This document shows, piece after piece, positions 2,601 through 40,730 of a stretch of 64,000 nucleotides of DNA (position 1 is the first letter of the stretch; every line of letters starts with the position of its first letter). The position numbers were made by a program, and so were the translations under genes. The notes beneath the pieces were generated by a model. It was not told the DNA's origin and ran no database searches. It saw nothing but the letters and a program-made list of their open reading frames with translations. Origin of the DNA: an uncultured Bacteroidales bacterium (lineage in GTDB: Bacteria > Bacteroidota > Bacteroidia > Bacteroidales > DTU049); contig CAYRXH010000001.1 of assembly GCA_964428185.1 (NCBI GenBank), positions 13,219-77,218 of the forward strand, read 5' to 3'.

Positions 2601-3514
2601 ATTCCGTTCATTAAATGTTTACGAATGATTTTGGCAAAATCAGTATTTGTTTTATGCCCCGGTCGATGGGCAATAACATGTCCATAAAACGGGATGCCTA
2701 CCAGGGTGAGATCACCCAGAATGTCTACAAGTTTATGTCTTGCAGGCTCATTTTCAAAGCGTAGATCTACATTGTTAAGAATTCCTTCTTTGAGAACCTT
2801 GATATCGGGCATATTAAAATACTGAATCAATCGTTGCTGTTCATCATCTGAGATGACATGATCTATGAAAATGATTGCATTCTGAAGATCGCCCCCTTTA
2901 ATAAGCCCGTGTTTCAACATTGGCTCAATTTCATGAAGAAAAGCAAAAGTACGGGCAGGGGCAAACTGATCAGCAAACTCATCAATATTGTTCATTGTTA
3001 CTTTTTGGGGCGGAATAATCTGGGATTTGTAATCAATGGTACATGAGATTTTAAATTCATTGCAAGGTTCAATTGAAATGTGAACATCTTTTTCAGCGTT
3101 GTAAATTTCAAACACTTTATTGATGTGAAAAACCTTTTTTTCATCTTCCAGTTCAATGATTCCGGCACTTTTTAAGAGTTCAACATATCCGCTTGCGCTG
3201 CCGTCAATGATGGGTATTTCCTCGCAATTGATTTCAATGCAAATATTATCAATATCCATTCCGGAGATTGCAGCAAGCAAATGTTCAATAGTCTTCACAG
3301 TGACATAGCCGTTGCTGATGGTAGTTCCGCGTGATGTGTCTGTTACAAAATCTGCGATCGCCTGAATTGTATTATCGCCTGCTAGGTCTGTTCTGATAAA
3401 GCGGATACCCTGCCCTGCTTTGGCAGGTAAAAACCTTAAATGAACCTCATTGCCGGTATGCAGACCTTTGCCATGCAGTTCCCTGACACAACCTATGGTT
3501 TTTTGTTTCTCCAT
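2597..3514 (-). CDS. lpxC: UDP-3-O-acyl-N-acetylglucosamine deacetylase
   Basis: 305 aa with LpxC-type motifs GLHTGNEV, TIEHLLAAISG and AHRPGHKTN. Confidence 0.85.
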   Translation of the reverse strand: MEKQKTIGCVRELHGKGLHTGNEVHLRFLPAKAGQGIRFIRTDLAGDNTIQAIADFVTDTSRGTTISNGYVTVKTIEHLLAAISGMDIDNICIEINCEEIPIIDGSASGYVELLKSAGIIELEDEKKVFHINKVFEIYNAEKDVHISIEPCNEFKISCTIDYKSQIIPPQKVTMNNIDEFADQFAPARTFAFLHEIEPMLKHGLIKGGDLQNAIIFIDHVISDDEQQRLIQYFNMPDIKVLKEGILNNVDLRFENEPARHKLVDILGDLTLVGIPFYGHVIAHRPGHKTNTDFAKIIRKHLMNGI

Positions 3515-3559
3515 GTCGGCTGCAAAAATACAATAATTGTTGAAACGAAAAGGAATTTT

Positions 3560-4597
3560 TTATTTCTGTGTTTTGAGTTTTTCTTCAAGATTCTTGATTC
3601 TGTTTTGCATATCTTCAAGGTTCTTAAAAAGTACAAAGGCTCGTTTGTATTTTGATGCGTCAATGGCCGGCGAGCCCATGACCATTGATTTATCTCTCAG
3701 ATTTGCAGCAATTCCTGACTGGGCCGCAATCATGACCTGGTTGCCAACGGTAATGTGTCCTGATAAACCAGCTTGTCCTCCGATCATGCAGTGATTGCCA
3801 ACTTTCGTTGAGCCCGAAAACCCTGCCTGTGATGCCACAACTGTATGCTTTCCGATTTCACAGTTATGTGCAACCATGATTAGATTGTCAAGTTTTGTCC
3901 CCTGTCTGATGATGGTTGATCCCATGGTCGCTCTGTCAATAGTAGTGTTGGCACCGATTTCAACCATATCTTCAATGATTACATTCCCAAGCTGTGGAAT
4001 TTTTGTATAAATGCCTTCATTTGAAGGTGCAAAACCAAATCCGTCAGAACCGATAACAACTCCTGAATGAATCATACAGCCATTGCCGATTTGAGTCTGG
4101 TTGTACAGTTTCACTCCTGAGTATAGTGTGGTTCCGTTTCCGATAATACAATGATCATCTACGAAGGTATGAGGATAAATACAAACTTCTTTGCCGATCT
4201 TAACATGTTCACCGATCACTACAAACTCTCCAATCCACACACTTTCCTTGTTTTCAAAACTCACTGATGGGTGAATTACTGCTGTGGATGCTATTCCGGT
4301 TTTTTTTGTGTTCAGGGTTTGCTGTATCATCTGAAGCAAACCTGTGAACGCAGCATAAGGATCTTCCACTCTTATCAGAGTAGATTGAACCGGCTGTGCA
4401 GGAACAAAGTCTGTTTTCACCAACACTATTGAAGCTTCAGTTGAATAAATAAATTTTGTATAAGCAGGATTTGCAAGAAAACTAAGAGTGCCTGGTTTGC
4501 CATCATCAATTTTGGATACAGAATACACTTCTGTATGGGGATTTCCTTCAATTGTACCATTGAGAAAATCGGATATTTGTTGCGCAGTAAATTTCAT
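3560..4597 (-). CDS. lpxD: UDP-3-O-acylglucosamine N-acyltransferase
   Basis: 345 aa with a long run of left-handed beta-helix hexapeptide repeats (IGxxxxIG pattern) and an LpxD-like N-terminus. Lies in the lipid A cluster. Confidence 0.9.
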
Positions 4598-4680
4598 AAA
4601 AAAAACTTTACTGCGAATTTAAATAAAATTTTTGCTGTATTCCTGATTTCTTCAAAAAAACAAATGGTCACACAAAGGAA

Positions 4681-5844
4681 TTAATAAAGAAAACTGAGCA
4701 GAACTCCGGCTGCAACAGCACTTCCGATAACACCGGCCACATTGGGCGCCATGGCATGCATCAGCAGATGATTGGTAGGGTCATAATGTAGACCTAGCTG
4801 TTGAGATACTCTTGCGCTGTCAGGAACAGCAGAAACCCCTGCACTTCCGATGAGCGGGTTGATTTTATTTCCTGTTTTTAGAAACAGGTTCATCAATTTG
4901 ACAAACAAAATGCCAGTAATTGTGGCAATTATAAATGATGCAGCGCCAAGTGCAAAGATGCCAATAGATTTAGTGTTCAGAAAGGTGGTTGCCTGTGTGG
5001 AAGCTCCAACGGTGAGACCAATGAGTATGGTGACAATGTTAATGAGAGGTCCGGCAGCAGTATCTGCAAGCCTGTTGGTAACTCCACTTTCTTTCAAAAG
5101 ATTCCCGAAGAATAGCATCCCGAGCAGAGGCAGCCCGCTGGGAACAAGAAAACAAGTGAGAAGGATACCAACAATTGGGAACAGAATCTTTTCACGTTTG
5201 CTCACTGCTCGTGGTGTTTTCATTCTTATCATTCTCTCCTTTGGGGTTGTCAGAAGTTTCATAATCGGAGCCTGAATAACCGGAACAAGAGCCATATAGG
5301 AATATGCAGAGATAGCAATGGCACCAATCAGTTCGGGTGCCAGCTTGGACGAGAGGAAAATGGCAGTGGGGCCATCAGCACCACCAATGATACCAATGGC
5401 ACCGGCTTCACTTGGAGAAAAACCAAGGGCAAGAGCAGAAATATAGGCACCAAAAATACCAAACTGGGTGGCAGCACCAATGAGTATGAGTCTTGGATTT
5501 GAAATGAGTGTTGAAAAATCAGTCATTGCACCAATACCAAGAAAAATCAATGGTGGATAAACACCCTGTATAACACCGAAATATAGATAATTCAGCACAC
5601 TTCCTTGTTCGTAAATTCCAATTTTTAGTCCCGGATAAAAGGGGATATTGCCCACAATAATCCCAAAGCCAATGGGGACAAGGAGCATGGGTTCATATTC
5701 TTTAGCAATTGCCAGATAAATAAAAATAAGCCCGATGGCAATCATGAACAGATGACCCCATGTTATATTCCCAAAAGCAGAATAATCAATAAACTGGATG
5801 ATATGGTCGATGACAAAACTGAAAAAACTACCTATTTCCTGCAT
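4681..5844 (-). CDS. mmdB: sodium ion-translocating decarboxylase, beta subunit
   Basis: 387-aa polytopic membrane protein with OadB/MmdB-like segments (GIGAMTDF, GGADGPTAIF). Last gene of the decarboxylase operon. Confidence 0.85.
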   Translation of the reverse strand: MQEIGSFFSFVIDHIIQFIDYSAFGNITWGHLFMIAIGLIFIYLAIAKEYEPMLLVPIGFGIIVGNIPFYPGLKIGIYEQGSVLNYLYFGVIQGVYPPLIFLGIGAMTDFSTLISNPRLILIGAATQFGIFGAYISALALGFSPSEAGAIGIIGGADGPTAIFLSSKLAPELIGAIAISAYSYMALVPVIQAPIMKLLTTPKERMIRMKTPRAVSKREKILFPIVGILLTCFLVPSGLPLLGMLFFGNLLKESGVTNRLADTAAGPLINIVTILIGLTVGASTQATTFLNTKSIGIFALGAASFIIATITGILFVKLMNLFLKTGNKINPLIGSAGVSAVPDSARVSQQLGLHYDPTNHLLMHAMAPNVAGVIGSAVAAGVLLSFLY

Positions 5845-5848
5845 AGTA

Positions 5849-6286
5849 CTAATCTCCTATGGTCATTAATGTGTCACCTTCTTTCACAGCATCTCCTTTT
5901 GAACAGTCAACTGATTGAATTGTTCCTTCGCGGTCAGCATACAGAACGTTCTCCATTTTCATTGCTTCAAGGGTTAGGATTTTTTGTCCCATGTTTACAT
6001 AATCACCTGTTTTTACATATATTTCCAGAATTGTTCCAGGAAGTGGTGATTTTATAGTGCTACTACTCTTAGGCGAATCGGAAGCATTTGTTTTGGCTTT
6101 TGCACTTTCAGAACCGTGTACAGCAGACGAATGGACAAGTTTCGGAGTTTTTTGTTGCTGAATACTCCTGTCTATCTGTACTTCGTATATGGTTCCGTTT
6201 ACATTGACCTGTGCAATGTTATCTTCGATAGTTCCAATTTCAACATCGTACTGATTTTCGTTGATAGTAAACTTGAATTTTTTCAT
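5849..6286 (-). CDS. mmdC: biotin carboxyl carrier subunit of the decarboxylase
   Basis: C-terminal biotinyl domain with the EAMKMEN biotin-lysine motif. Confidence 0.8.
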   Translation of the reverse strand: MKKFKFTINENQYDVEIGTIEDNIAQVNVNGTIYEVQIDRSIQQQKTPKLVHSSAVHGSESAKAKTNASDSPKSSSTIKSPLPGTILEIYVKTGDYVNMGQKILTLEAMKMENVLYADREGTIQSVDCSKGDAVKEGDTLMTIGD

Positions 6287-7197
6287 AATTTATTGCTGCT
6301 TGAGGGATTGTTTCTTAATCCGTAAATCTTTGAACTCCATGGAGAGTAAGGTCTGGATATTTTCTTGATGGTTATGGTGGTATGCTCAAAATCATGATTT
6401 TGAGCGACATACATGCTTAAGGCCATGGCTATGGCTGCATTCACTTCTCCTGAAAGAACCACTGTTTCAGTCTTTTGGGATAACTGATGCTTATCAGAAT
6501 GTTTCACTTTCACAGAAATCTTTTTCTGATTCAGGTAGCCTACTAACCGATAAATATAGTAGAGTAAAATAAGTGCTCCGAAGACAACAGACATTGAGAT
6601 AATTGTCAGGGCACCCCCCCATGGATCAAGACGACCAAACATTTCAGCAGTTGTTTCTCCAATCTCAGTAATATTGCTTGAGTTTGGAGTTGATTTATTC
6701 ATGAAACTCCATTCATCTCCACCATCAATGGTTCTACCATAAGTAATATCTGTTGTTTGTTTTGGGTAATGAATCTCATTGAGCAATGTTTTTCCATCAC
6801 TATCATAAATGCCAATATAACCAGATTCTGAAAGGAGAAAGTTAAGATGAAAAATGCCTCTTGTAGGCTTATTATCTGCATAAAAAATGACAAAGCTTCT
6901 TGGATTCAATACTGTTGCGTTTCCTGCATCAGGGATCCTGTATTTTGTTGTGTTTGCAGGATCATTAGTAATGTACATTTTTGCAATGTTCACTGGGTTA
7001 TAGGCAGGATTGAACAATTCTATCCATGCTGAATGACACCCAAAATCATCAATGTAGTTGGAATCATTAAAAACCAGAAATTCATTGATAAGGATCATTC
7101 TGTTTCCCTGTGCAGAAGTTATTCTGGCAGAAAAAACAACTATAATGATGGAAAGGATTACCAATCTGAAACCTTGTGTTCTCATTTCTGATATCAT
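6283..7197 (-). CDS. lamin-tail-like domain protein with a C-terminal OadG-like membrane anchor
   Basis: Signal or anchor at the N-terminus, a beta-rich domain, then a TM segment (LTIISMSVVFGALILLYYIY) resembling the small OadG/MmdD subunit. Sits between the carboxyltransferase and the biotin carrier. Confidence 0.5.
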   Translation of the reverse strand: MISEMRTQGFRLVILSIIIVVFSARITSAQGNRMILINEFLVFNDSNYIDDFGCHSAWIELFNPAYNPVNIAKMYITNDPANTTKYRIPDAGNATVLNPRSFVIFYADNKPTRGIFHLNFLLSESGYIGIYDSDGKTLLNEIHYPKQTTDITYGRTIDGGDEWSFMNKSTPNSSNITEIGETTAEMFGRLDPWGGALTIISMSVVFGALILLYYIYRLVGYLNQKKISVKVKHSDKHQLSQKTETVVLSGEVNAAIAMALSMYVAQNHDFEHTTITIKKISRPYSPWSSKIYGLRNNPSSSNKL

Positions 7198-8756
7198 TAA
7201 AGTGGGAGATTGGAATGTTTTTTCGGAGGATTAAGTTCCTTTTTGGTTGCAAATGCCTGAAGGGCCTTGATCACTCTGAAGCGGGTATTTCTGGGTTCAA
7301 TCACGTCGTCGATGAATCCGTATTTTGCAGCCTGATATGGTGATGCAAATTTTTCCATGTATTCTTTTTCCTTTTCAGCAATATATTTGGCCCGTTCTTC
7401 GGCATTATCAATGGATCTGATTTTTTTTCCTTCAAGGATTTCAATTGCTCCTTTTGCCCCCATAACAGCAATTTCAGCTGTTGGCCATGCATAATTAATA
7501 TCTGCTCTCAGCTGTTTTGATCCCATCACATCATGAGCTCCTCCGTATGATTTACGAAGTGTGATTGTAATTTTGGGAACGGTCGCTTCGCCATATGCAT
7601 ACAATAATTTTGCTCCGTTCAGGATTATACCTCCATATTCCTGTGCAGTTCCGGGGAGAAAACCGGGTACATCCACAAGAGTTACAATGGGAATATTGAA
7701 TGCATCGCAGAACCTCACAAATCGTGCTCCCTTTCTCGAGGCTTCAATATCCAGAACACCTGCAAGGTAGTTTGGCTGATTGGCAACGATACCAACGGGC
7801 ATCCCGTTAAACCTTGAAAATCCAACCACAATGTTGGGTGAATAATGTTTGTGGATTTCCAGAAACTCACTGTTATCTACAATGCTATGAATGATATCCT
7901 TCACATCATACGGTTTGTTGGGATTTTCAGGAATGATGTAGTTTAACGAATCTTCAAGTCTGTCAATTGGGTCATCACAACTGACAATAGGAGGATCTTC
8001 AAGATTATTTTGCGGAAGATAACTCAAAAGTTTTCGTATAAGTAGAATGCCCTCTTCTTCATTATCAGCAATCAGATGTGCTACACCGGATTTTGAGGCA
8101 TGAACCATCGCTCCTCCAAGTTCCTGATCGGTGACTACTTCACCTGTGACAGTTTTTACCACTTTCGGACCGGTAACAAACATATAACTGTTTTCTTTCG
8201 ACATTATAATGAAATCAGTAAGGGCAGGAGAGTAAACTGCACCGCCGGCACAGGGTCCAAATATTGCTGAAATCTGCGGAATGACACCGGAAGCAAGAAT
8301 ATTCCGCTGGAAAATATTTGCATATCCGCCAAGACTTTTAATTCCCTCCTGAATACGTGCACCACCACTATCATTGAACCCGATAACAGGCGCTCCCACT
8401 TTCATTGCCTGATCCATGATCTTACATATTTTGTTGGCAAATGTTTCTGAAAGAGAACCGCCAAAAACGGTAAAATCATGAGAGAACACAAAAACCAGAC
8501 GACCATCGATGGTGCCGTATCCAGTGACAACACCGTCTGAAAGAAAATGCTGCTTTTCAAGTCCAAAATCATAACAACGGTGAGAAACAAACATATCAAA
8601 TTCTTCAAAACTCCCTTCGTCAAGCAAAAGGTCAAGCCTTTCCCTAGCAGTGAGTTTTCCCTTTGAATGCTGGGCCTCAATACGTTCAAGACCACCACCC
8701 ATTCGCGCCATATCTCGCTTGTTTAGCAATTCGGCTATTTTATCTTCTTTCGGCAT
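7197..8756 (-). CDS. mmdA: methylmalonyl-CoA decarboxylase alpha subunit (acyl-CoA carboxyltransferase)
   Basis: 519 aa, with carboxyltransferase N and C domains recognisable over the full length ([27 protein letters not shown]). Confidence 0.85.
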
Positions 8757-34479: not shown

Positions 34480-37287
34480 TTATGATGGTTGGCTCAGATA
34501 CTTTTCAAAAATTGTTCTCAGTTTTTTTAGGCTGATTGGTTTGGCAAGAAACTCATCACAGCCGGCATCTCTTGCTCGTTGTTCATCCTCAGCTAGGGTA
34601 TAAGCAGTTTGCACAATAATAAAACTCTCAGGTGAAATGTCTTTGATAACCCTGGTTGCATCAATTCCTGATCCGTCTTCAAGTCTCACATCCATAAGAA
34701 TAATGTTAAACTTGTTAATCCGGCTCAGTTCAATTGCCTCAGATGCTTTTGAAGTAACGGTAATGTTCGCATTAAATTCAGCAAGTGCATTTTGCAGAAA
34801 CAGCACATTCAGTTCTTCATCATCAACAATCAAAATATTCAATGTGTCTGAGTGCTTGAGATTGATGTGGCTTCTATTGTCCGCAGAGCCGGAAACGGAT
34901 ACAGAATGATACAATGGAAAATAAAAATAAAACTTTGATCCCTTTCCTGGACTGGATTCCAGACCAACTTTTCCTCCAAGCATTTCAACATAGGCTTTCA
35001 TTATTGAAAGTCCGAGGCCTGACCCTTTTATTTCATGGGCACGCTTGTTTTCGCAGCGGTAGAATCTTTCAAAAACAAGTTCATGTTCAGAGGGATCAAT
35101 ACCAATCCCTGTGTCTGAAACTGAAAAAACAAGCAGTTCAGAACTCAGTTGATGGCAATCAACAAGAATGTGGCCTACATCAGTATATTTAAAGGCGTTG
35201 TTGATGAGGTTGATAAATATTTGTTCGAACTTTACCCGGTCAGTGTAAACTTTGATATTGCCGGATGGTTCAGGGACATTAAAGATTATTTTAATGTTTT
35301 TTTCATCAGGAATCTGATTGCTGTATATGGTATTCAGATGACTAAAAAAATCACTGATGTGTAATTCTTCATAACGTAAAGTCATCTGACCTGTTTCAAT
35401 AAGGGAGATTTCAATGATGTCATTGATGATTGTCAGGAGTTGATCTGTGCTTTGCTGAATGATTGTAGCAAATCTGGTGATATCTTTTCTACTGTATTCA
35501 GACTGGCTCAGAAGTGATGCAAATCCTGCAATTGAATTCATGGGAGTCCTGATTTCATGTGATAGATTGGCCAGAAATGATGATTTTAATCTGTTGCTTT
35601 CTTCTGCTTTTTCCTTAGCAGCTCTCAGATCTTCATTTGTTTTCTGTATCTGGATTTCAGCTTCCTTAAGTTCAGTAACATCGGTCATTGTGCCCACATA
35701 ACCGTTAAACTGATTTCCCATGAAATCGGGTACCGCATATCCCAATACCCAGACCAGAGACCCATCAGGCCTGACAATCCTGTATTCAGCCCTTGAAGGT
35801 ACACGTTGTTTTACCCGTTCTTTCCACTCACTGATAATTTTTTCTCTATCATCTGGGTGAATAATTTTCAGCCAGCCCGAACCAATTGCCTGCTCGGCGC
35901 TTAAAGAAGTCATTTTTGTCCATGCCGGATTCACAAAAATTGTGTCACCTGCTGTGTCAGTCCTGAAAATTCCCACCGGCGAATTCATTGCCATATTGTG
36001 GAATAATGCTGTCGCTTTTTCGGCTTCCTTCTCAATCCTTTTTTTGTCATCAATATCTCTTGCAAAAGCCAGAATTCTTATGCTTTCACCAATATGTGCC
36101 TTGTTGAGAGTCATTTCTATCCAGAAGACACTGCCGTCTTTTCGTTTTCCTCTCCACTCAAATGTAACCTGTCCTTTTTGACGGGCTTCAGCAAGTTTTT
36201 TCCGAACAAGATCGGGAGTAAAACCTCCTTCAATATCAAATATCTTATCTGGCGGGAGAGACCCTATAATCTCTTTTGAATCATATCCAAACATATCAAG
36301 AATAGTCTGATTCATATCAAGTATTTCACCAGTATCATAATCGTGAATAAAAATGCCGTCTCTTGAAGCATTGAAAATTTCCCTGTAATTCTTCTCCTCA
36401 ATTTCAAGATGTTCAGATGTTTCTTTGAGTTCAGCTATTTTTGCCTTGATTTTTCGTCTGAGGACAATCACATGGAATATTATCAGCAGTAGCGAAGTTA
36501 GAATAATAATAAGAAACAGGATAAATGAGTAAGGAAGTCGAAAATCTTCAGGTGAAGCCAGCCAGGTATTCAGTGATTCATAGTAAACTGAACCGGGTGT
36601 GTTTTTCATATCACAAAGGTGCCTGTCGATAATATTCAAAAGCTCCTGATTTTCCCCCTTCTTTGTTGCAAAGAACAAATCTCTCGTCTGAAAGACCAGT
36701 GCTGTTGGCACAATTTTGTCTTTTCTCAGATCTGAAAAATAGAAAAACCGACTTGCCAGAATGGCATCAATGCTTTCATCCTTTAGTGCATTGACAGATT
36801 CTTCATAGGTTTCAAATATAACAGGATTGATATTGACCGTATATGAAGCAGGAAACTCATGCAAAAGATACTTATGCTGAACAGATCCTTTTAAAACACC
36901 AATATCTTTGTTATCAAGATCGTTTATCTCCCGAATGATCTTGTCTTCTTTGCAGAATATTTGAATCCATGACTGAATAACCGGAATTTTGTTGAATGAA
37001 TACAGTGAGTCTCTCTCAGTGTTAAATGCCATAACGGGCAGCAGCTCAATATCTCCTTCTGAAAGATTGATCAGGTGATTGGACCAGCTGTCTTCAATAT
37101 ATTGAATCTCAATTTTCTCTATCCTTGCAATTTCATTGAGAATATCAATAAAAATCCCCTGTGGATTTCCTTTTGTATCAGTAAATACTTTTGGAGGGTT
37201 TTGATATACTCCTACTTTTACATGCTGTCCTTTCATGGAAATCTGCATGGAAAAGAGAATGATCATTAAGAGAAAGGATTTTCTCAT
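34480..37287 (-). CDS. hybrid sensor histidine kinase/response regulator with a periplasmic solute-binding-like domain and PAS domains
   Basis: Signal and SBP-like N-domain, TM segment, two PAS-like regions, H-box LANLSHEIRTPMN, ATPase boxes (DTGIGI, GSGLGLSI) and a C-terminal receiver (ILIVDDE...LMDVRLEDGSG). Confidence 0.85.
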   Translation of the reverse strand: MRKSFLLMIILFSMQISMKGQHVKVGVYQNPPKVFTDTKGNPQGIFIDILNEIARIEKIEIQYIEDSWSNHLINLSEGDIELLPVMAFNTERDSLYSFNKIPVIQSWIQIFCKEDKIIREINDLDNKDIGVLKGSVQHKYLLHEFPASYTVNINPVIFETYEESVNALKDESIDAILASRFFYFSDLRKDKIVPTALVFQTRDLFFATKKGENQELLNIIDRHLCDMKNTPGSVYYESLNTWLASPEDFRLPYSFILFLIIILTSLLLIIFHVIVLRRKIKAKIAELKETSEHLEIEEKNYREIFNASRDGIFIHDYDTGEILDMNQTILDMFGYDSKEIIGSLPPDKIFDIEGGFTPDLVRKKLAEARQKGQVTFEWRGKRKDGSVFWIEMTLNKAHIGESIRILAFARDIDDKKRIEKEAEKATALFHNMAMNSPVGIFRTDTAGDTIFVNPAWTKMTSLSAEQAIGSGWLKIIHPDDREKIISEWKERVKQRVPSRAEYRIVRPDGSLVWVLGYAVPDFMGNQFNGYVGTMTDVTELKEAEIQIQKTNEDLRAAKEKAEESNRLKSSFLANLSHEIRTPMNSIAGFASLLSQSEYSRKDITRFATIIQQSTDQLLTIINDIIEISLIETGQMTLRYEELHISDFFSHLNTIYSNQIPDEKNIKIIFNVPEPSGNIKVYTDRVKFEQIFINLINNAFKYTDVGHILVDCHQLSSELLVFSVSDTGIGIDPSEHELVFERFYRCENKRAHEIKGSGLGLSIMKAYVEMLGGKVGLESSPGKGSKFYFYFPLYHSVSVSGSADNRSHINLKHSDTLNILIVDDEELNVLFLQNALAEFNANITVTSKASEAIELSRINKFNIILMDVRLEDGSGIDATRVIKDISPESFIIVQTAYTLAEDEQRARDAGCDEFLAKPISLKKLRTIFEKYLSQPS

Positions 37288-37360
37288 AAGGGCAAAGAAT
37301 TGGATGCAAAATTAAATAAATTATTCAAATTCAATGAATTGAATAGATTTCTTAGAGGGT

Positions 37361-38740
37361 TTACTGAAAGCTTGTAGAAAGTACACGGAATACCTCTCCA
37401 CGCTCTTCAAAATTTTTAAACTGATCATAACTTGATGCGGCAGGGGAAAGCAGACATATTTGTCCAGAAAGCGTGCTTCTGAGAGCGTGCAATGCACATT
37501 CGCTGAAATCTGAATGGTAGAATATTTGTCTTGGAATTTTGTTTTTCAACACATCAAACATTTTTTGTCCTGCTTCTCCATAACAGAAAATATTGTTGAT
37601 TTTGTATTGAATGATTTTCTCATAAAAATCACTGTAGTCAAGCCCTCTGTCCTTTCCTCCCAGAATGAGTGATGCTACCGGTTGCAAAGTTTCAACTGTA
37701 AAAAGCGAAGCTTGGGGTATTGTGGCAATACTGTCATTGTAACATATAATTCCCGATGGGGTTTCAATCCTTTCCATTCTGTGTGGTAGTCCATGAAATG
37801 TACGTAACCCCTTATACATATTCTCTGTTGTCAGCCCAAGATGTGAACATGCGCAAATGGCTGCCAGACAATTTGAAATATTATGTAATCCACTGATATT
37901 CAGTTCGCTGAATTTTATAATCTGCTCTGTGCCGTGGTAATTGCAGTAAATAGAACCGTTTTCTGCCCAGGCACCTTTGTAAGCATGAGGATGAACAGAA
38001 TAAAAAAGTTTTTTGGCATTGATATGATGAGCTTCAGGATAAATATTTTTCTGATCCAGATTGATGATAATACAGTCATCATCCGAAGCTAATCTGAAAA
38101 GATTTCTTTTGGCATTGTAATATGTTTCTGTATCCGGATAATAGTCAAGATGTTCAGGGAACAGATTGAGAATAATGCCAATTCTGGGAGCTGCCGTTAT
38201 GTACTGAAGCTGATGGGATGAAACTTCAACCACTGCAGTTTCTGCAAGTACGATGTCATCAATGAGGTCAAAAGGAGGGATACCGATATTACCGGCAAGC
38301 GGTACATGGTCAAACTGAGTTCTCAAAATATGGGCAATCAGTGAGGATGTTGTGCTTTTCCCTTTGGTTCCGGTTACTGCAACGATTTTTTTTCCAAAAA
38401 ACCGGAAAAGAAAATCTGTTTGTGAAGTGAGATGGGTTTTTTCAGGTATTGTGGCCTGAAACAATGATATTCCGGGAGAAACAAAGACCAGTTCTGAATG
38501 TTTAAGGCAATCAAGATAATTGACTCCGCTGTGTTTTTCTGTATAATTGTCACTATAAGCAGGGTGTTCCGAAAAAGCTGTCTGGTTTTTGTCAGCAATG
38601 ATAAGCTTTTGCTCAGGCAGATATTTTCTTATCAGCGAATAGGTGGATTTCCCTTCACGCCCGAAACCCAAAATACAAATGCTGTTGTATTTAAGTATTT
38701 CAGATTTCAGTATTTCTGATAAATTGTCTGAGCTGTACAT
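37361..38740 (-). CDS. MurD-family ligase outside any dcw cluster (candidate MurD2)
   Basis: N-terminal Rossmann ICILGFGREGKS, P-loop VTGTKGKSTTSSL and C-terminal LLSPAASSYDQFKNFEERGEVF. Overlaps the upstream gene by 41 nt. Confidence 0.6.
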   Translation of the reverse strand: MYSSDNLSEILKSEILKYNSICILGFGREGKSTYSLIRKYLPEQKLIIADKNQTAFSEHPAYSDNYTEKHSGVNYLDCLKHSELVFVSPGISLFQATIPEKTHLTSQTDFLFRFFGKKIVAVTGTKGKSTTSSLIAHILRTQFDHVPLAGNIGIPPFDLIDDIVLAETAVVEVSSHQLQYITAAPRIGIILNLFPEHLDYYPDTETYYNAKRNLFRLASDDDCIIINLDQKNIYPEAHHINAKKLFYSVHPHAYKGAWAENGSIYCNYHGTEQIIKFSELNISGLHNISNCLAAICACSHLGLTTENMYKGLRTFHGLPHRMERIETPSGIICYNDSIATIPQASLFTVETLQPVASLILGGKDRGLDYSDFYEKIIQYKINNIFCYGEAGQKMFDVLKNKIPRQIFYHSDFSECALHALRSTLSGQICLLSPAASSYDQFKNFEERGEVFRVLSTSFQ

Positions 38741-40091
38741 ACAGTTTTTCTGTTAGAAAGTGATCCGGATTGAATTGTTGAAATATCGCATTCCTGAACT
38801 GAGTTTCAGATTTACTGATCATTAGATTGCTGTGTCTGAAGTAATCAAGAAGGTATGGTAGGGGCTTGTGTTCATACCATCTATCCAGAGAATAGCTGAG
38901 AGCCAAATTAATTTCGGAAGGAGTACCGACACATTCAAAAGGTTTGACTTTTTCTGACCCCGTCAGTTGACGGAAAATGGTAAGCAATTCCCGGTTGTCA
39001 AAAATATTATAGCCAAAGATTTGGGTGATTCCTGAGGGGCCAATAAATGGAAGCAGGATTATTGCTGTAAAAAGGCATTTCGGACATTTGCCACACCAGA
39101 TATTTTGTTTGCTTCCTGCATTGCAGCTTCTGAAAACTTCGTGATAATGTGTCATCCTGCTAAATGCGGCTGCAATCTGCAATTCTGAAAGGGGTCTGAG
39201 CAGGCTGAAATAATTATAGTGAGGACTGATCCATGTTTGTACATAGTATCTGAAATCCTTTTCAAATTCAACGGATTTTGAATACTGATGGTTTATTTTT
39301 GTTCCAAGAACGGTGGCTTCGTTGGCACTGGATTCATTACTGAGAGCAATGTCAGCAATACCTGAAACATAAGCGACAACAAGAGACTGAAAAGCAAGCA
39401 GAGATGAAAATGGAGTGTGTCCGTTGAGAAAGCCCTCAGTATTCAAACGGAGGAGTTCGGGATCAATTGTACGATGAATCACGAAAGTCAGATCATCTGA
39501 TATGCCGGCGGTCTTGACTGTTTCTGTCATCGCTTCTCTTGGGTTCACCAGCATTAGTCTTACGTTTGCACCTGTGTTCAGGAGGAACTCAAGGCTCACT
39601 GCCGAATCTTTCCCTCCACCAACCGGTACAATCACTTCATTGCTAAATTGTCGAAAATCCACTTTTGAAAAAGGAATATCACTTTTACATTCAATTTTCA
39701 GAAAATCTTCTTCAGAGGCATCAATTGAGTTGATCCAGAAAAATTCTCCAAGACCGTTAAACCAAAGTTTTTTCCACCATCTGATCTGATCCTGATTCAG
39801 CTGAAACGGTTTAATAATGACCCGTTTAGGGCATGCTGCTTTCCAGTAGCTGATCAGTTCAACCATCCCCAGATTAAACAGCAGAACATGTATATCATTC
39901 TGATTCAGATGTTCAGGTTGAGAGTTGAATATAAATTTTGTCTGTGGTTTAAAAATGAGTTGATTATCAAGTGAAAATTGATATTCCACAGACAGTTCAT
40001 GACCGTTTAATTGAAAATTATAGCCTTCAAATGAAAAAATTTGAAATTGTTTTCTCAGGTCTGTATATTTGTCAAAATTATTTTGCCGCAT
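38700..40091 (-). CDS. PP-loop-like protein of unknown function (candidate MurL-type epimerase)
   Basis: 463 aa with VPVGGGKDSAVS (a variant of the SGGxDS PP-loop) and a CGKCPKC cysteine cluster. Translationally coupled to the MurD-like gene. Confidence 0.4.
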   Translation of the reverse strand: MRQNNFDKYTDLRKQFQIFSFEGYNFQLNGHELSVEYQFSLDNQLIFKPQTKFIFNSQPEHLNQNDIHVLLFNLGMVELISYWKAACPKRVIIKPFQLNQDQIRWWKKLWFNGLGEFFWINSIDASEEDFLKIECKSDIPFSKVDFRQFSNEVIVPVGGGKDSAVSLEFLLNTGANVRLMLVNPREAMTETVKTAGISDDLTFVIHRTIDPELLRLNTEGFLNGHTPFSSLLAFQSLVVAYVSGIADIALSNESSANEATVLGTKINHQYSKSVEFEKDFRYYVQTWISPHYNYFSLLRPLSELQIAAAFSRMTHYHEVFRSCNAGSKQNIWCGKCPKCLFTAIILLPFIGPSGITQIFGYNIFDNRELLTIFRQLTGSEKVKPFECVGTPSEINLALSYSLDRWYEHKPLPYLLDYFRHSNLMISKSETQFRNAIFQQFNPDHFLTEKLYVQLRQFIRNTEI

Positions 40092-40145
40092 AATAAACGG
40101 TATAATATTTGAAGAAGGCTCAAAATTAATGAATAATCCGGAACT

Positions 40146-40730
40146 ATGGAAAAGAAGTTTGAGATCAGGGCAAATGCAGTAAAGCCTGCTTCAGGCCGCC
40201 TGCTTGTATCAGAGCCCTTGCTGCAGGATGTGTACTTCAGGCGTTCAGTTGTTCTGCTTATCGAGCATTCAAAGGATGAAGGTTCAGTAGGGGTTATTCT
40301 GAACAAACCCCTTGATGTAACCTTTAATCAGGTGGTGAAAAATTCACCTGCTCTCAATGCTGGAATGTTTCTGGGTGGGCCTGTGGCAACCGGTAATGTC
40401 TATTTTCTTCACACATTGGGGTATGACATTGAAAATGCTATTGAAATTGGCAAAGGCCTTTTCTGGGGAGGGAATATTGAACAGGTGAATGAACTGATTG
40501 CATTGCAGGTACTCAATCCCTCAAATATCCGCTTTTATATTGGCTATTCGGGTTGGGGGGCAATGCAGCTTGAAAATGAACTAAGTCTCAACAGTTGGGC
40601 AATTGTGAAAGCACAGACACATGAAATCTGGAAACTTCCTGCTTCTGCGATGTGGGAAACCATGGTTGAGAAACTGGGATCCGGATATGACTTTTGGAAA
40701 AAAATGCCCGAAGATCCGGGGATGAATTGA
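40146..40730 (+). CDS. yqgE: YqgE/AlgH-family protein (UPF0301)
   Basis: LVSEPLLQDVYFRRSVVLLIEHSKDEGSVGVILNKPL and GGPV signatures, 194 aa. Confidence 0.8.
   Translation: MEKKFEIRANAVKPASGRLLVSEPLLQDVYFRRSVVLLIEHSKDEGSVGVILNKPLDVTFNQVVKNSPALNAGMFLGGPVATGNVYFLHTLGYDIENAIEIGKGLFWGGNIEQVNELIALQVLNPSNIRFYIGYSGWGAMQLENELSLNSWAIVKAQTHEIWKLPASAMWETMVEKLGSGYDFWKKMPEDPGMN

What the first reader, a model, noticed from the sequence alone, without database searches (positions are those of the whole stretch)
37361..40091. Stand-alone MurD-like ligase overlapping a PP-loop-like protein: candidate MurD2/MurL route for D-glutamate in peptidoglycan
The 459-aa protein has all the MurD hallmarks: an N-terminal Rossmann loop, GTKGKST, and a C-terminal SPAASSYDQFKNFEERG. 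However, it sits far from any mraY/ftsW/murG context.

It overlaps by 41 nt a 463-aa protein with a GGGKDS PP-loop-like motif and a CGKCPKC cluster. An alternative pathway is established in Xanthomonas: MurD2 adds L-Glu to UDP-MurNAc-L-Ala, and the ATP-dependent epimerase MurL converts it to D-Glu. As I recall, homologues have been reported outside that genus. This gene pair fits that arrangement, but I cannot confirm homology of the 463-aa protein to MurL from memory.
Basis: inference. Interest (0 to 1): 0.6.

Follow-up and report, generated by a model that had tools for sequence, protein, structure and literature searches.

The report
MurL–MurD2 D-glutamate bypass operon
This uncultured Bacteroidales genome has no detectable glutamate racemase and instead carries the known two-gene "Xanthomonas" route, which attaches L-glutamate to the cell-wall precursor and then flips it to D-glutamate with ATP; it is an ordinary new member of a known pathway, but that pathway is far more widespread than the papers I could search say.

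Summary

- **Gene pair:** 38700-40091(-) encodes a MurL homologue (NCBIfam MurL E 3.8e-72; 32% identical to a bona fide Xanthomonas MurL). 37361-38740(-) overlaps it by 41 nt and encodes a MurD-family ligase.
- **L-Glu signature:** the ligase has the residues shown by mutagenesis to make MurD2 use L-Glu (E196 and R365, at E. coli D182 and K348), plus I338 at K319. In trees it groups with Xanthomonas MurD2, apart from canonical MurDs.
- **Genome context:** a separate canonical murD (D/K/K) lies in a complete dcw cluster on another contig. No murI or Asp/Glu-racemase domain was found (94.7% complete genome).
- **Distribution:** of 121 same-order genomes, 43 have MurL and none of those has murI; 74 have murI only; 4 have neither. 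A second murD copy occurs only in MurL-positive genomes.
- **Fold:** a confident AlphaFold model of MurL matches QueC and other PP-loop ATP pyrophosphatases. That fits the published ATP-to-AMP chemistry.

Activity is inferred, not assayed. This scan has already reported the same pair on more than 300 other genomes. Verdict: a new member of a known kind, of modest interest.

The parts
38700..40091 (-). [quoted passage not shown]
   Evidence: NF041275 MurL E 3.8e-72, 243 bits, model positions 4-392/447. 32% identity, E 2e-56, to X. sacchari MurL. More than 8000 homologues, with precomputed Pfam PF26298+PF26299 on the 120 listed. AF2 model pLDDT 91.1.
39603..39620 (-). PP-loop motif GGGKDS (MurL residues 158-163)
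   Evidence: Invariant in 30 homologues and conserved in X. sacchari MurL as GGGKDS. The fold matches QueC and other PP-loop enzymes.
39075..39125 (-). Four-cysteine cluster C323, C333, C336, C339 (SCN...WCGKCPKC): putative QueC-like zinc site
   Evidence: All four Cys are invariant in 30 homologues and conserved in X. sacchari MurL. QueC is the top fold hit. Zinc binding is inferred.
37361..38740 (-). murD2: MurD-family ligase with the L-Glu-type signature (E196, I338, R365, Y438), 459 aa
   Evidence: TIGR01087 315.7 bits. Signature versus E. coli and dcw MurD. Groups with X. sacchari MurD2 and all MurL-linked ligases, apart from canonical MurD.
38700..38740 (-). 41-nt overlap of the murL 3' end and the murD2 5' end (probable translational coupling)
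   Evidence: murL-then-murD2 adjacency or overlap in 77 of 80 loci. 20-nt overlap in X. sacchari. In-frame fusions in G243 and G236.
40121..40128 (-). TAATTTTG, a match to the Bacteroides -7 promoter consensus TAnnTTTG, about 30 nt upstream of the murL ATG
   Evidence: Read directly from the 54-nt murL/algH intergenic sequence. The consensus comes from my own knowledge of Bacteroides promoters, so this is an inference and was not tested.

Best explanation
The two genes form a bicistronic murL-murD2 operon that supplies the D-glutamate of the peptidoglycan stem peptide without free D-glutamate.

- MurL (38700-40091) uses its QueC-like PP-loop domain to adenylate the alpha-carboxylate of the new C-terminal L-Glu (ATP to AMP). 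That makes the alpha-proton labile. [quoted passage not shown]

In this genome the route most likely replaces glutamate racemase MurI. The canonical dcw MurD is retained, probably to use scavenged or recycled D-Glu.

Shown here: homology, specificity residues, gene linkage, genome content, phyletic complementarity with murI, and fold. Inferred: the enzymatic activities, the adenylation chemistry in this protein, zinc binding, and the role of the retained MurD.
For: - **MurL homology:** NF041275 at E 3.8e-72. 32% identity to X. sacchari MurL with all core motifs shared (GGGKDS, NGH.P, SNE.SA, NHQ.SK, SLLRPLSEL, SCN, WCG.CPKC, KPFECVG). That reference scores 836 bits, over the equivalog cut-off.
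- **Ligase signature:** the published chirality residues are Xoo MurD2 E197 and R358 against E. coli D182 and K348. The MurD2 double mutant switches to D-Glu, and E. coli K319T gains L-Glu use. The window ligase reads E/I/R at positions 182/319/348, as does X. sacchari MurD2. E. coli MurD, this genome's dcw MurD and 14 other Bacteroidales dcw MurDs read D/K/K.
- **Catalytic residues:** K115, N138, E157, H183, K198, R302, D317, T321 and S415 are all kept.
- **Trees:** MurL-linked ligases form one side of a branch (SH-aLRT 95). With X. sacchari MurD2 included the support is UFboot 90 / SH-aLRT 93. Canonical MurDs form the other side at 96 and 97/91.
- **Linkage:** a MurD-like gene lies directly downstream of MurL in 77 of 80 named genomes. 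X. sacchari has the same order and an overlap. Single open frames of 949 and 885 aa cover both genes in G243 and G236.
- **Genome content:** canonical murD lies in a dcw cluster on C7. There is no murI and no Asp_Glu_race domain. C1 and C7 share GC content and tetranucleotide profile, r = 0.994.
- **Phyletic pattern in 121 same-order genomes, one per family:** MurL only 43, murI only 74, both 0, neither 4. A second murD occurs only in MurL-positive genomes (22/43 against 0/78). Eighteen MurL-positive genomes have only the MurD2 type.
- **Named carriers:** four named MurL-positive genomes also lack murI.
- **Fold:** AF2 pLDDT 91, pTM 0.91. Top PDB match is QueC 3bl5 (probability 1.0, E 5.4e-4, TM 0.66 on the target), followed by QatC, ThiI, TtuA, MnmA, ArgG and NAD synthetase. 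This agrees with the published ATP-to-AMP stoichiometry.
Against: - No activity data exist for this protein or for any Bacteroidota or Lachnospiraceae orthologue.
- The MurL score (243 bits) is far below the 700-bit equivalog cut-off. Identity to Xanthomonas proteins is only 32% for MurL and 27% for MurD2.
- The X. sacchari MurD2 sits on a long branch (3.09), so its placement is less secure, and support for the D2 group is 90/93 rather than decisive.
- Positions 414 and 416 read S/Y here, not the P/F of Xanthomonas.
- The genome is a 203-contig MAG, 94.7% complete, so a missing murI cannot be excluded from this genome alone.
- A 276-aa class-IV aminotransferase of unassigned specificity (C58) could in principle make D-Glu.
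- It is unexplained why a canonical D-Glu-type MurD is kept if no D-Glu is made.
Confidence: 0.87

Rival explanations
1. The window ligase is just a redundant second D-Glu-adding MurD. D-Glu would come from an unassembled murI or from the class-IV aminotransferase on C58, and the MurL homologue would do something else.
For: The genome is 94.7% complete in 203 contigs. The C58 276-aa class-IV aminotransferase has weak D-amino-acid transaminase hits of 92-97 bits. The ligase passes the murD equivalog cut-off.
Against: - None of the 43 MurL-positive same-order genomes has murI over cut-off, against 74 of 78 MurL-negative ones.
- The aminotransferase occurs in 11 of 43 MurL-positive and 37 of 78 MurL-negative genomes, so it does not track the absence of murI. 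No transaminase model passes its cut-off.
- The ligase has E/I/R, not D/K/K, at the chirality positions.
- Eighteen MurL-positive genomes have only this ligase type.
Confidence: 0.05
2. The pair acts on a different substrate or product. Examples are a modified stem peptide, a non-peptidoglycan UDP-sugar peptide, or carboxylate amidation (PP-loop enzymes often amidate) rather than epimerisation.
For: Identity to characterised-family proteins is low, at 27-32%. PP-loop relatives such as QueC, NAD synthetase and ArgG mostly perform adenylate-mediated N-transfer rather than epimerisation. Pseudonocardia plasmids carry lone MurL-like genes without a ligase.
Against: - Strict complementarity with murI points to D-Glu supply.
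- The MurD residues I take, from the E. coli MurD structural literature, to bind UDP-MurNAc-L-Ala and ATP are conserved.
- All MurL core motifs are shared with Xanthomonas MurL.
- MurD2-only genomes still need an ordinary stem peptide for MurE.
Confidence: 0.05
3. The two murD genes are a binning artefact: contig C1 with the pair and contig C7 with the dcw cluster come from different organisms.
For: The assembly is a metagenome bin of 203 contigs.
Against: - C1 and C7 have GC of 38.2% and 38.3% and a tetranucleotide correlation of 0.994. Both correlate at 0.997 or better with the bin mean.
- Contamination is estimated at 0.95%.
- The same arrangement lies on a single 3.9-Mb contig in G222 (murL/murD2 at 3.885-3.888 Mb, canonical murD at 1.432 Mb) and occurs in 21 other genomes.
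Confidence: 0.02

Closest known systems
[quoted passage not shown] 2017, as reviewed in PMC8788868 and PMC5808125); NCBIfam NF041275
   Same: - Homologous over about 390 residues.
- Same motifs: GGGKDS, NHQ.SK, SLLRPLSEL, WCG.CPKC, KPFECVG.
- Same position immediately upstream of, and overlapping, a MurD2-type ligase.
- The host lacks murI.
   Different: - Only 32% identical to a Xanthomonas MurL, and well below the equivalog cut-off (243 against 700 bits).
- The N-terminal 75 and C-terminal 70 residues do not align in BLASTP.
- The host is a Bacteroidota, a phylum not listed in the published distribution.
[quoted passage not shown]
   Same: - MurD-family fold and catalytic residues.
- E, I and R at E. 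coli positions 182, 319 and 348, as in X. sacchari MurD2.
- Same clade in the tree.
- Encoded directly after murL.
   Different: - 27% identity.
- Positions 414 and 416 are S/Y instead of P/F. The review reports that P433A and F435L did not change stereospecificity.
Canonical MurD (E. coli b0088; this genome's C7:36003-37343)
   Same: Same family (TIGR01087 over cut-off), same three-domain architecture, and the same ATP, Mg and UDP-MurNAc-L-Ala residues.
   Different: - Canonical copies read D182, K319, K348 and F/L416 and lie between mraY and ftsW.
- They score 380-430 bits on TIGR01087, against 290-365 bits for the MurD2 type.
- They form a separate clade.
QueC (7-cyano-7-deazaguanine synthase, PDB 3bl5) and the PP-loop ATP pyrophosphatase superfamily (QatC, ThiI, TtuA, MnmA, ArgG, NadE)
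   Same: - The central MurL domain has the same fold (Foldseek probability 1.0).
- It has a PP-loop motif, here the variant GGGKDS.
- It has a C-terminal four-Cys cluster like the QueC zinc site.
- The chemistry begins with carboxylate adenylation that releases AMP.
   Different: - No sequence-level hit to any PDB entry.
- MurL has extra N- and C-terminal domains, and TM on the query is only 0.31.
- The outcome is epimerisation and hydrolysis rather than nitrogen or sulfur transfer.

Membership tests
[quoted passage not shown] | Sequence homology to Xanthomonadales MurL across the catalytic core | tested here: met
   E 3.8e-72 over model positions 4-392/447. 32% identity over 326 aa, E 2e-56, to X. 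sacchari MurL, which scores 836 bits.
[quoted passage not shown] | Score above the NCBIfam equivalog cut-off (700 bits) | tested here: not met
   243 bits. The model is built for Xanthomonadales only, so this shows divergence rather than non-orthology.
[quoted passage not shown] | Genetic linkage to a MurD2-type ligase | tested here: met
   41-nt overlap here. 77 of 80 loci are adjacent. X. sacchari has the same order. Fusions occur in G243 and G236.
[quoted passage not shown] | Host lacks other D-Glu sources (murI, D-amino-acid aminotransferase) | tested here: met
   No TIGR00067 and no PF01177 hit. No transaminase passes its cut-off. 0 of 43 MurL-positive relatives have murI. Caveats: the genome is 94.7% complete, and one class-IV aminotransferase remains unassigned.
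[quoted passage not shown] | ATP-dependent, unidirectional L-to-D epimerisation that releases AMP | not testable with these tools
   Needs an enzyme assay. The PP-loop fold is consistent with adenylation.
[quoted passage not shown] | Glu and Arg at the positions of Xoo MurD2 E197 and R358 (E. coli D182 and K348) | tested here: met
   E196 and R365 in the window ligase. The paralogous dcw MurD of the same genome has D and K. Residue roles are from PMC8788868.
[quoted passage not shown] | Groups phylogenetically with Xanthomonas MurD2 rather than canonical MurD | tested here: met
   The D2 group, including X. sacchari MurD2, forms one side of a branch with UFboot 90 / SH-aLRT 93, and it does so in 94% of bootstrap trees. 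The canonical group has 97/91. The Xanthomonas sequence is on a long branch.
[quoted passage not shown] | Preference for L-Glu over D-Glu | not testable with these tools
   Needs an enzyme assay.
PP-loop ATP pyrophosphatase superfamily (for MurL's central domain) | SGGxDS-type P-loop at the first strand-helix turn, and the alpha/beta fold | tested here: met
   GGGKDS lies at residues 158-163, after strand 150-156 and before helix 161-172. The top Foldseek hits are all PP-loop enzymes, with QueC at probability 1.0 and E 5.4e-4. There was no sequence-level Pfam or PDB hit.

The most novel reading that the evidence does not exclude
The MurD2/MurL route is not a rarity of a few proteobacterial and actinomycete genera. 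It is the sole D-glutamate source in roughly a third of Bacteroidales families and in gut and rumen Lachnospiraceae. It excludes murI strictly, has fully displaced canonical murD in about 40% of its carriers, and has moved between phyla, since the Lachnospiraceae ligases nest inside the Bacteroidota ones. If so, the published case for it as a pathogen-specific, narrow-spectrum drug target does not hold, because inhibitors would also hit abundant commensals.
Probability: 0.6. Interest if true: 0.5.

Novelty: new member of a known kind. Interest (0 to 1): 0.33.

Why it matters
For this genome it settles the annotation. The stand-alone "murD" is most likely an L-glutamate ligase, and the neighbouring gene is the epimerase. 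(NCBI names many of its close homologues "hypothetical protein".) Together they explain how a bacterium with no detectable glutamate racemase can build its wall.

More broadly, the reviews I could read describe the pathway as limited to a few genera rich in pathogens, and promote it as a narrow-spectrum antibiotic target. The data here show something different:
- It occurs in at least 592 species genomes.
- It occurs in 43 of 121 sampled Bacteroidales families, with perfect exclusion of murI.
- It occurs in cultured Lachnospiraceae such as Pseudobutyrivibrio xylanivorans.

That weakens the narrow-spectrum premise and offers tractable cultured hosts for testing. The QueC-like PP-loop fold also gives a concrete mechanistic frame for an enzyme the reviews describe as lacking known domains. 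The scan has already made this point on many other genomes, so this window adds a well-controlled instance rather than a discovery.

Tried and rejected
- **Local Pfam:** no MurL domain hit, only a sub-threshold DUF6395 match. The precomputed annotations list PF26298 and PF26299, which the local copy seems to lack.
- **PDB by sequence:** nothing for MurL. Only the fold search worked.
- **Phylum-wide sample:** 151 genomes at least 90% complete, searched with the Xanthomonadales HMM, gave MurL only in this genome. That sample held just 4 same-order genomes, so I repeated the search at order level with a lineage-matched profile.
- **Reaching Xanthomonadales:** A tblastn of the plasmid collection unexpectedly supplied a Xanthomonas sacchari pair instead.
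- **Dat-like hits:** one is IlvE. The other is an unassigned class-IV aminotransferase that does not track murI absence, so I rejected it as the racemase substitute.
- **Promoter and terminator scan:** the sigma-70 scan is not meaningful for Bacteroidota. No terminator-like site was found anywhere in 37000-40500.
- **Binning artefact:** rejected.
- **Statistics:** Fisher's test on the 2x2 table gives p of about 1e-28. The genomes are related, so I rely on the counts and not on the p-value.
Full report
**Observation.** Two ORFs lie on the minus strand exactly as described: 37361-38740 (459 aa) and 38700-40091 (463 aa), overlapping by 41 nt. The ATG at 38740 is the only credible start of the downstream gene. 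The next ATG/GTG/TTG is a TTG at codon 24, inside the GFGREG Rossmann loop. All quoted motifs are present: GFGREG, GTKGKST and SPAASSYDQFKNFEERG in the ligase, and VPVGGGKDS and CGKCPKC in the upstream protein.

**What the two proteins are.**
- The 459-aa protein scores 315.7 bits on TIGR01087 (murD, cut-off 212) and has the Mur ligase middle domain.
- The 463-aa protein has a single NCBIfam hit: NF041275, the Xanthomonadales MurL model, at E 3.8e-72 and 243 bits over model positions 4-392 of 447. That is below the 700-bit equivalog cut-off, which is tuned to Xanthomonadales.
- A tblastn of the plasmid collection found a Xanthomonas sacchari replicon with an annotated murL. That protein scores 836 bits on NF041275, so it is a valid reference.
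- The window protein is 32% identical to the reference over 326 residues (E 2e-56). They share GGGKDS, NGH.P, SNE.SA, NHQ.SK, SLLRPLSEL, SCN, WCG.CPKC and KPFECVG.
- In X. sacchari, murL is followed by a 'murD' that overlaps it by 20 nt. This is the same layout as in the window.

**Is the ligase a MurD2?** The review PMC8788868 reports three relevant results. X. oryzae MurD2 differs from E. coli MurD near the glutamate site at E197/R358/P433/F435 (E. coli D182/K348/A414/L416). The E197D/R358K double mutant switches MurD2 from L-Glu to D-Glu. E. coli K319T gains L-Glu use. Aligned to E. coli MurD (NC_000913.3), the sequences read as follows at E. coli positions 182, 319, 348, 414 and 416:

| Ligase | 182 | 319 | 348 | 414 | 416 |
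|---|---|---|---|---|---|
| Window ligase | E | I | R | S | Y |
| X. sacchari MurD2 | E | I | R | P | F |
| E. coli MurD | D | K | K | A | L |
| This genome's dcw MurD | D | K | K | A | F |

- Fourteen other Bacteroidales dcw MurDs also read D/K/K with F at 416, and A at 414 in all but one.
- Among the 72 MurL-adjacent ligases from named genomes, 69 have E, 70 have I and 70 have R; most of the rest are alignment gaps.
- The residues I take, from the E. coli MurD literature, to be the ligase's catalytic and ATP/UDP-substrate contacts are retained: K115, N138, E157, H183, K198, R302, D317, T321 and S415.
- In a 96-sequence tree, the MurL-linked ligases form one side of a branch (SH-aLRT 95). E. 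coli and the dcw MurDs form the other (96), with MurC and MurE outside.
- A more careful 63-sequence tree that includes X. sacchari MurD2 keeps it with the MurL-linked group (UFboot 90 / SH-aLRT 93). The canonical group has 97/91. The Xanthomonas sequence is on a long branch, so this is good but not decisive support.

**Genome-level predictions.** The assembly is 2.85 Mb in 203 contigs and 94.7% complete.
- A second murD scoring 398 bits sits on contig C7 inside murE-mraY-murD-ftsW-murG-murC, followed by ORFs that I take from position alone to be ftsQ, ftsA and ftsZ; the first of them hit no NCBIfam model.
- There is no hit to glutamate racemase (TIGR00067) or to the Asp/Glu racemase domain (PF01177). 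Both searches ring in the control genomes.
- Two class-IV aminotransferases exist. One is IlvE (419 bits, over cut-off). The other, C58:10747-11577, passes no model's cut-off. Its homologues occur in 11 of 43 MurL-positive and 37 of 78 MurL-negative relatives, so it does not substitute for murI.
- C1 and C7 have the same GC content and a tetranucleotide correlation of 0.994, so the two murD genes are not a binning artefact.

**Comparative test.** I sampled 121 genomes of the same order, one per family.

| Gene content | Genomes |
|---|---|
| MurL only | 43 |
| murI only (over cut-off) | 74 |
| Both | 0 |
| Neither | 4 |

- The genomes are related, so the counts matter more than any p-value, but the exclusion is complete.
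- TIGR01087 scores are bimodal: 380-430 bits for canonical copies and 290-365 bits for the MurD2 type.
- Two murD copies occur only in MurL-positive genomes (22 of 43 against 0 of 78).
- Eighteen MurL-positive genomes have only the MurD2 type. These include genomes estimated 99-100% complete, and G224 from the window's own family. In those genomes the MurD2-type ligase must carry the essential step.
- G222 has both loci on a single 3.9-Mb contig.
- Four named MurL-positive genomes also lack murI: Pseudobutyrivibrio xylanivorans DSM 14809, Draconibacterium orientale, Marinifilum sp. and Ca. Enterocloster faecavium.
- A MurD-like gene follows MurL directly in 77 of 80 named-genome loci.
- In G243 and G236 one open frame of 949 or 885 aa covers both genes.

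**Mechanism.** An AlphaFold2 model of MurL built on 30 homologues is confident (pLDDT 91.1, pTM 0.91).
- Foldseek against the PDB gives QueC (3bl5) first, at probability 1.0, E 5.4e-4 and TM 0.66 on the target. QatC, ThiI, TtuA, MnmA, argininosuccinate synthase and NAD synthetase follow. All are PP-loop ATP pyrophosphatases.
- GGGKDS sits between strand 150-156 and helix 161-172, as a PP-loop should.
- The four invariant cysteines (C323, C333, C336, C339) resemble the QueC zinc site.
- The reviews state that MurL consumes one ATP, releases AMP, is unidirectional and 'lacks known conserved domains', and they propose adenylation of the alpha-carboxylate. The fold result supports that proposal.
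- Whether inversion goes by direct deprotonation or through an oxazolone is my inference and is untested.

**Operon signals.**
- A TAATTTTG match to the Bacteroides TAnnTTTG -7 element lies about 30 nt upstream of murL, in the 54-nt gap shared with a divergent algH/yqgE gene.
- A second TAATTTTG lies in the 73-nt gap before the downstream sensor kinase. That suggests the pair is its own bicistronic unit. The consensus is from my own knowledge, so this is inference.
- No terminator-like site was found.

**Comparison with what is known, and novelty.**
- The pathway was discovered in X. oryzae, and orthologues were verified in Micromonospora and Salinispora.
- The reviews list only Xanthomonadales-type Gammaproteobacteria, a few Alphaproteobacteria and rare actinomycetes, plus 'low-similarity' hits in cyanobacteria, a fungus and an amoeba. 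They call the distribution limited.
- I found no open-access paper linking MurL to Bacteroidota, Lachnospiraceae, QueC or the PP-loop. The primary papers are not in the library.
- Databases are ahead of the literature. JGI already names many of these homologues as the epimerase, and Pfam domains exist for them.
- MurL relatives occur in at least 592 species genomes.
- The Lachnospiraceae ligases form a well-supported clade nested within the Bacteroidota ones, which suggests transfer between phyla.
- This scan's own notes hold 316 earlier findings with the same reading, in Bacteroidales, Clostridia and Patescibacteria.
- This window is therefore a well-supported new member of a known kind. Its interest is modest and lies mainly in the breadth of the pathway and in the clean murI exclusion.

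**Open points.**
- Why this genome keeps a canonical D-Glu-type MurD. I infer D-Glu salvage, which is untested.
- The function of the N- and C-terminal MurL domains.
- The absence of any biochemical data outside Proteobacteria and Actinobacteria.

Noticed in passing
G243:C329:4119-6875 (L097) and G236:C23:10595-13216: The MurL and MurD2 matches fall in one open frame of 949 aa (G243) and 885 aa (G236). These are apparent in-frame MurL-MurD2 fusion proteins in two families of the same order.
   Followed up: partly
L120 (G224:C79) 3190-6339 and L119 (G224:C82) 6725-8062: In the only other sampled genome of the window's family, the algH/murL divergent pair is conserved. However, a 377-aa ORF with no family hit follows murL in place of murD2. 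The sole MurD-family ligase (E/I/R/Y type) lies elsewhere, downstream of mlaE/mlaF-like genes, and no canonical murD was found (genome 97% complete).
   Followed up: partly
L090, L061, L052, L056, L068, L071, L078, L079, L084 (Lachnospiraceae and Bacillota loci): The MurD2-type ligases of Lachnospiraceae form one strongly supported clade nested among the Bacteroidota ligases. That suggests transfer of the pair between phyla. The direction was not tested with a rooted MurL tree.
   Followed up: partly
L122 (Pseudonocardia alni plasmid pPaSha1, 3764-5164) and two other Pseudonocardia plasmids: Mobilizable actinomycete plasmids carry a lone MurL-like 'hypothetical protein' (28-31% identity). On pPaSha1, the only one examined, no adjacent Mur ligase is annotated. 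It may have a different substrate or role.
   Followed up: no
G164, G231, G240, G253 (same order): Four genomes, 94-100% complete, showed neither MurL nor murI. G164 and G240 also lacked any strong murD hit. Their D-Glu source is unexplained.
   Followed up: no
G000:C58:10747-11577: A 276-aa class-IV (fold-type IV) aminotransferase passes no NCBIfam cut-off (D-amino-acid transaminase, BCAT and PabC models all at 67-97 bits). It is present in about 40% of same-order genomes regardless of murI status. PabC is my guess.
   Followed up: partly
window 34480-37287 (-): A 935-aa protein that looks, from its sequence alone, like a hybrid sensor histidine kinase (periplasmic binding domain, PAS repeats, HisKA/HATPase, receiver); no family search was run on it. 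It starts 73 nt downstream of murD2 on the same strand, with its own TAATTTTG element in the gap and no predicted terminator between the genes.
   Followed up: no
G000 contig C5 (77.8 kb): C5 is a tetranucleotide outlier in the bin (correlation 0.81 to the mean, against 0.965 or more for all other contigs of at least 20 kb). It may be the crAss-like phage contig noted by earlier reports on this genome; I did not check that link.
   Followed up: no
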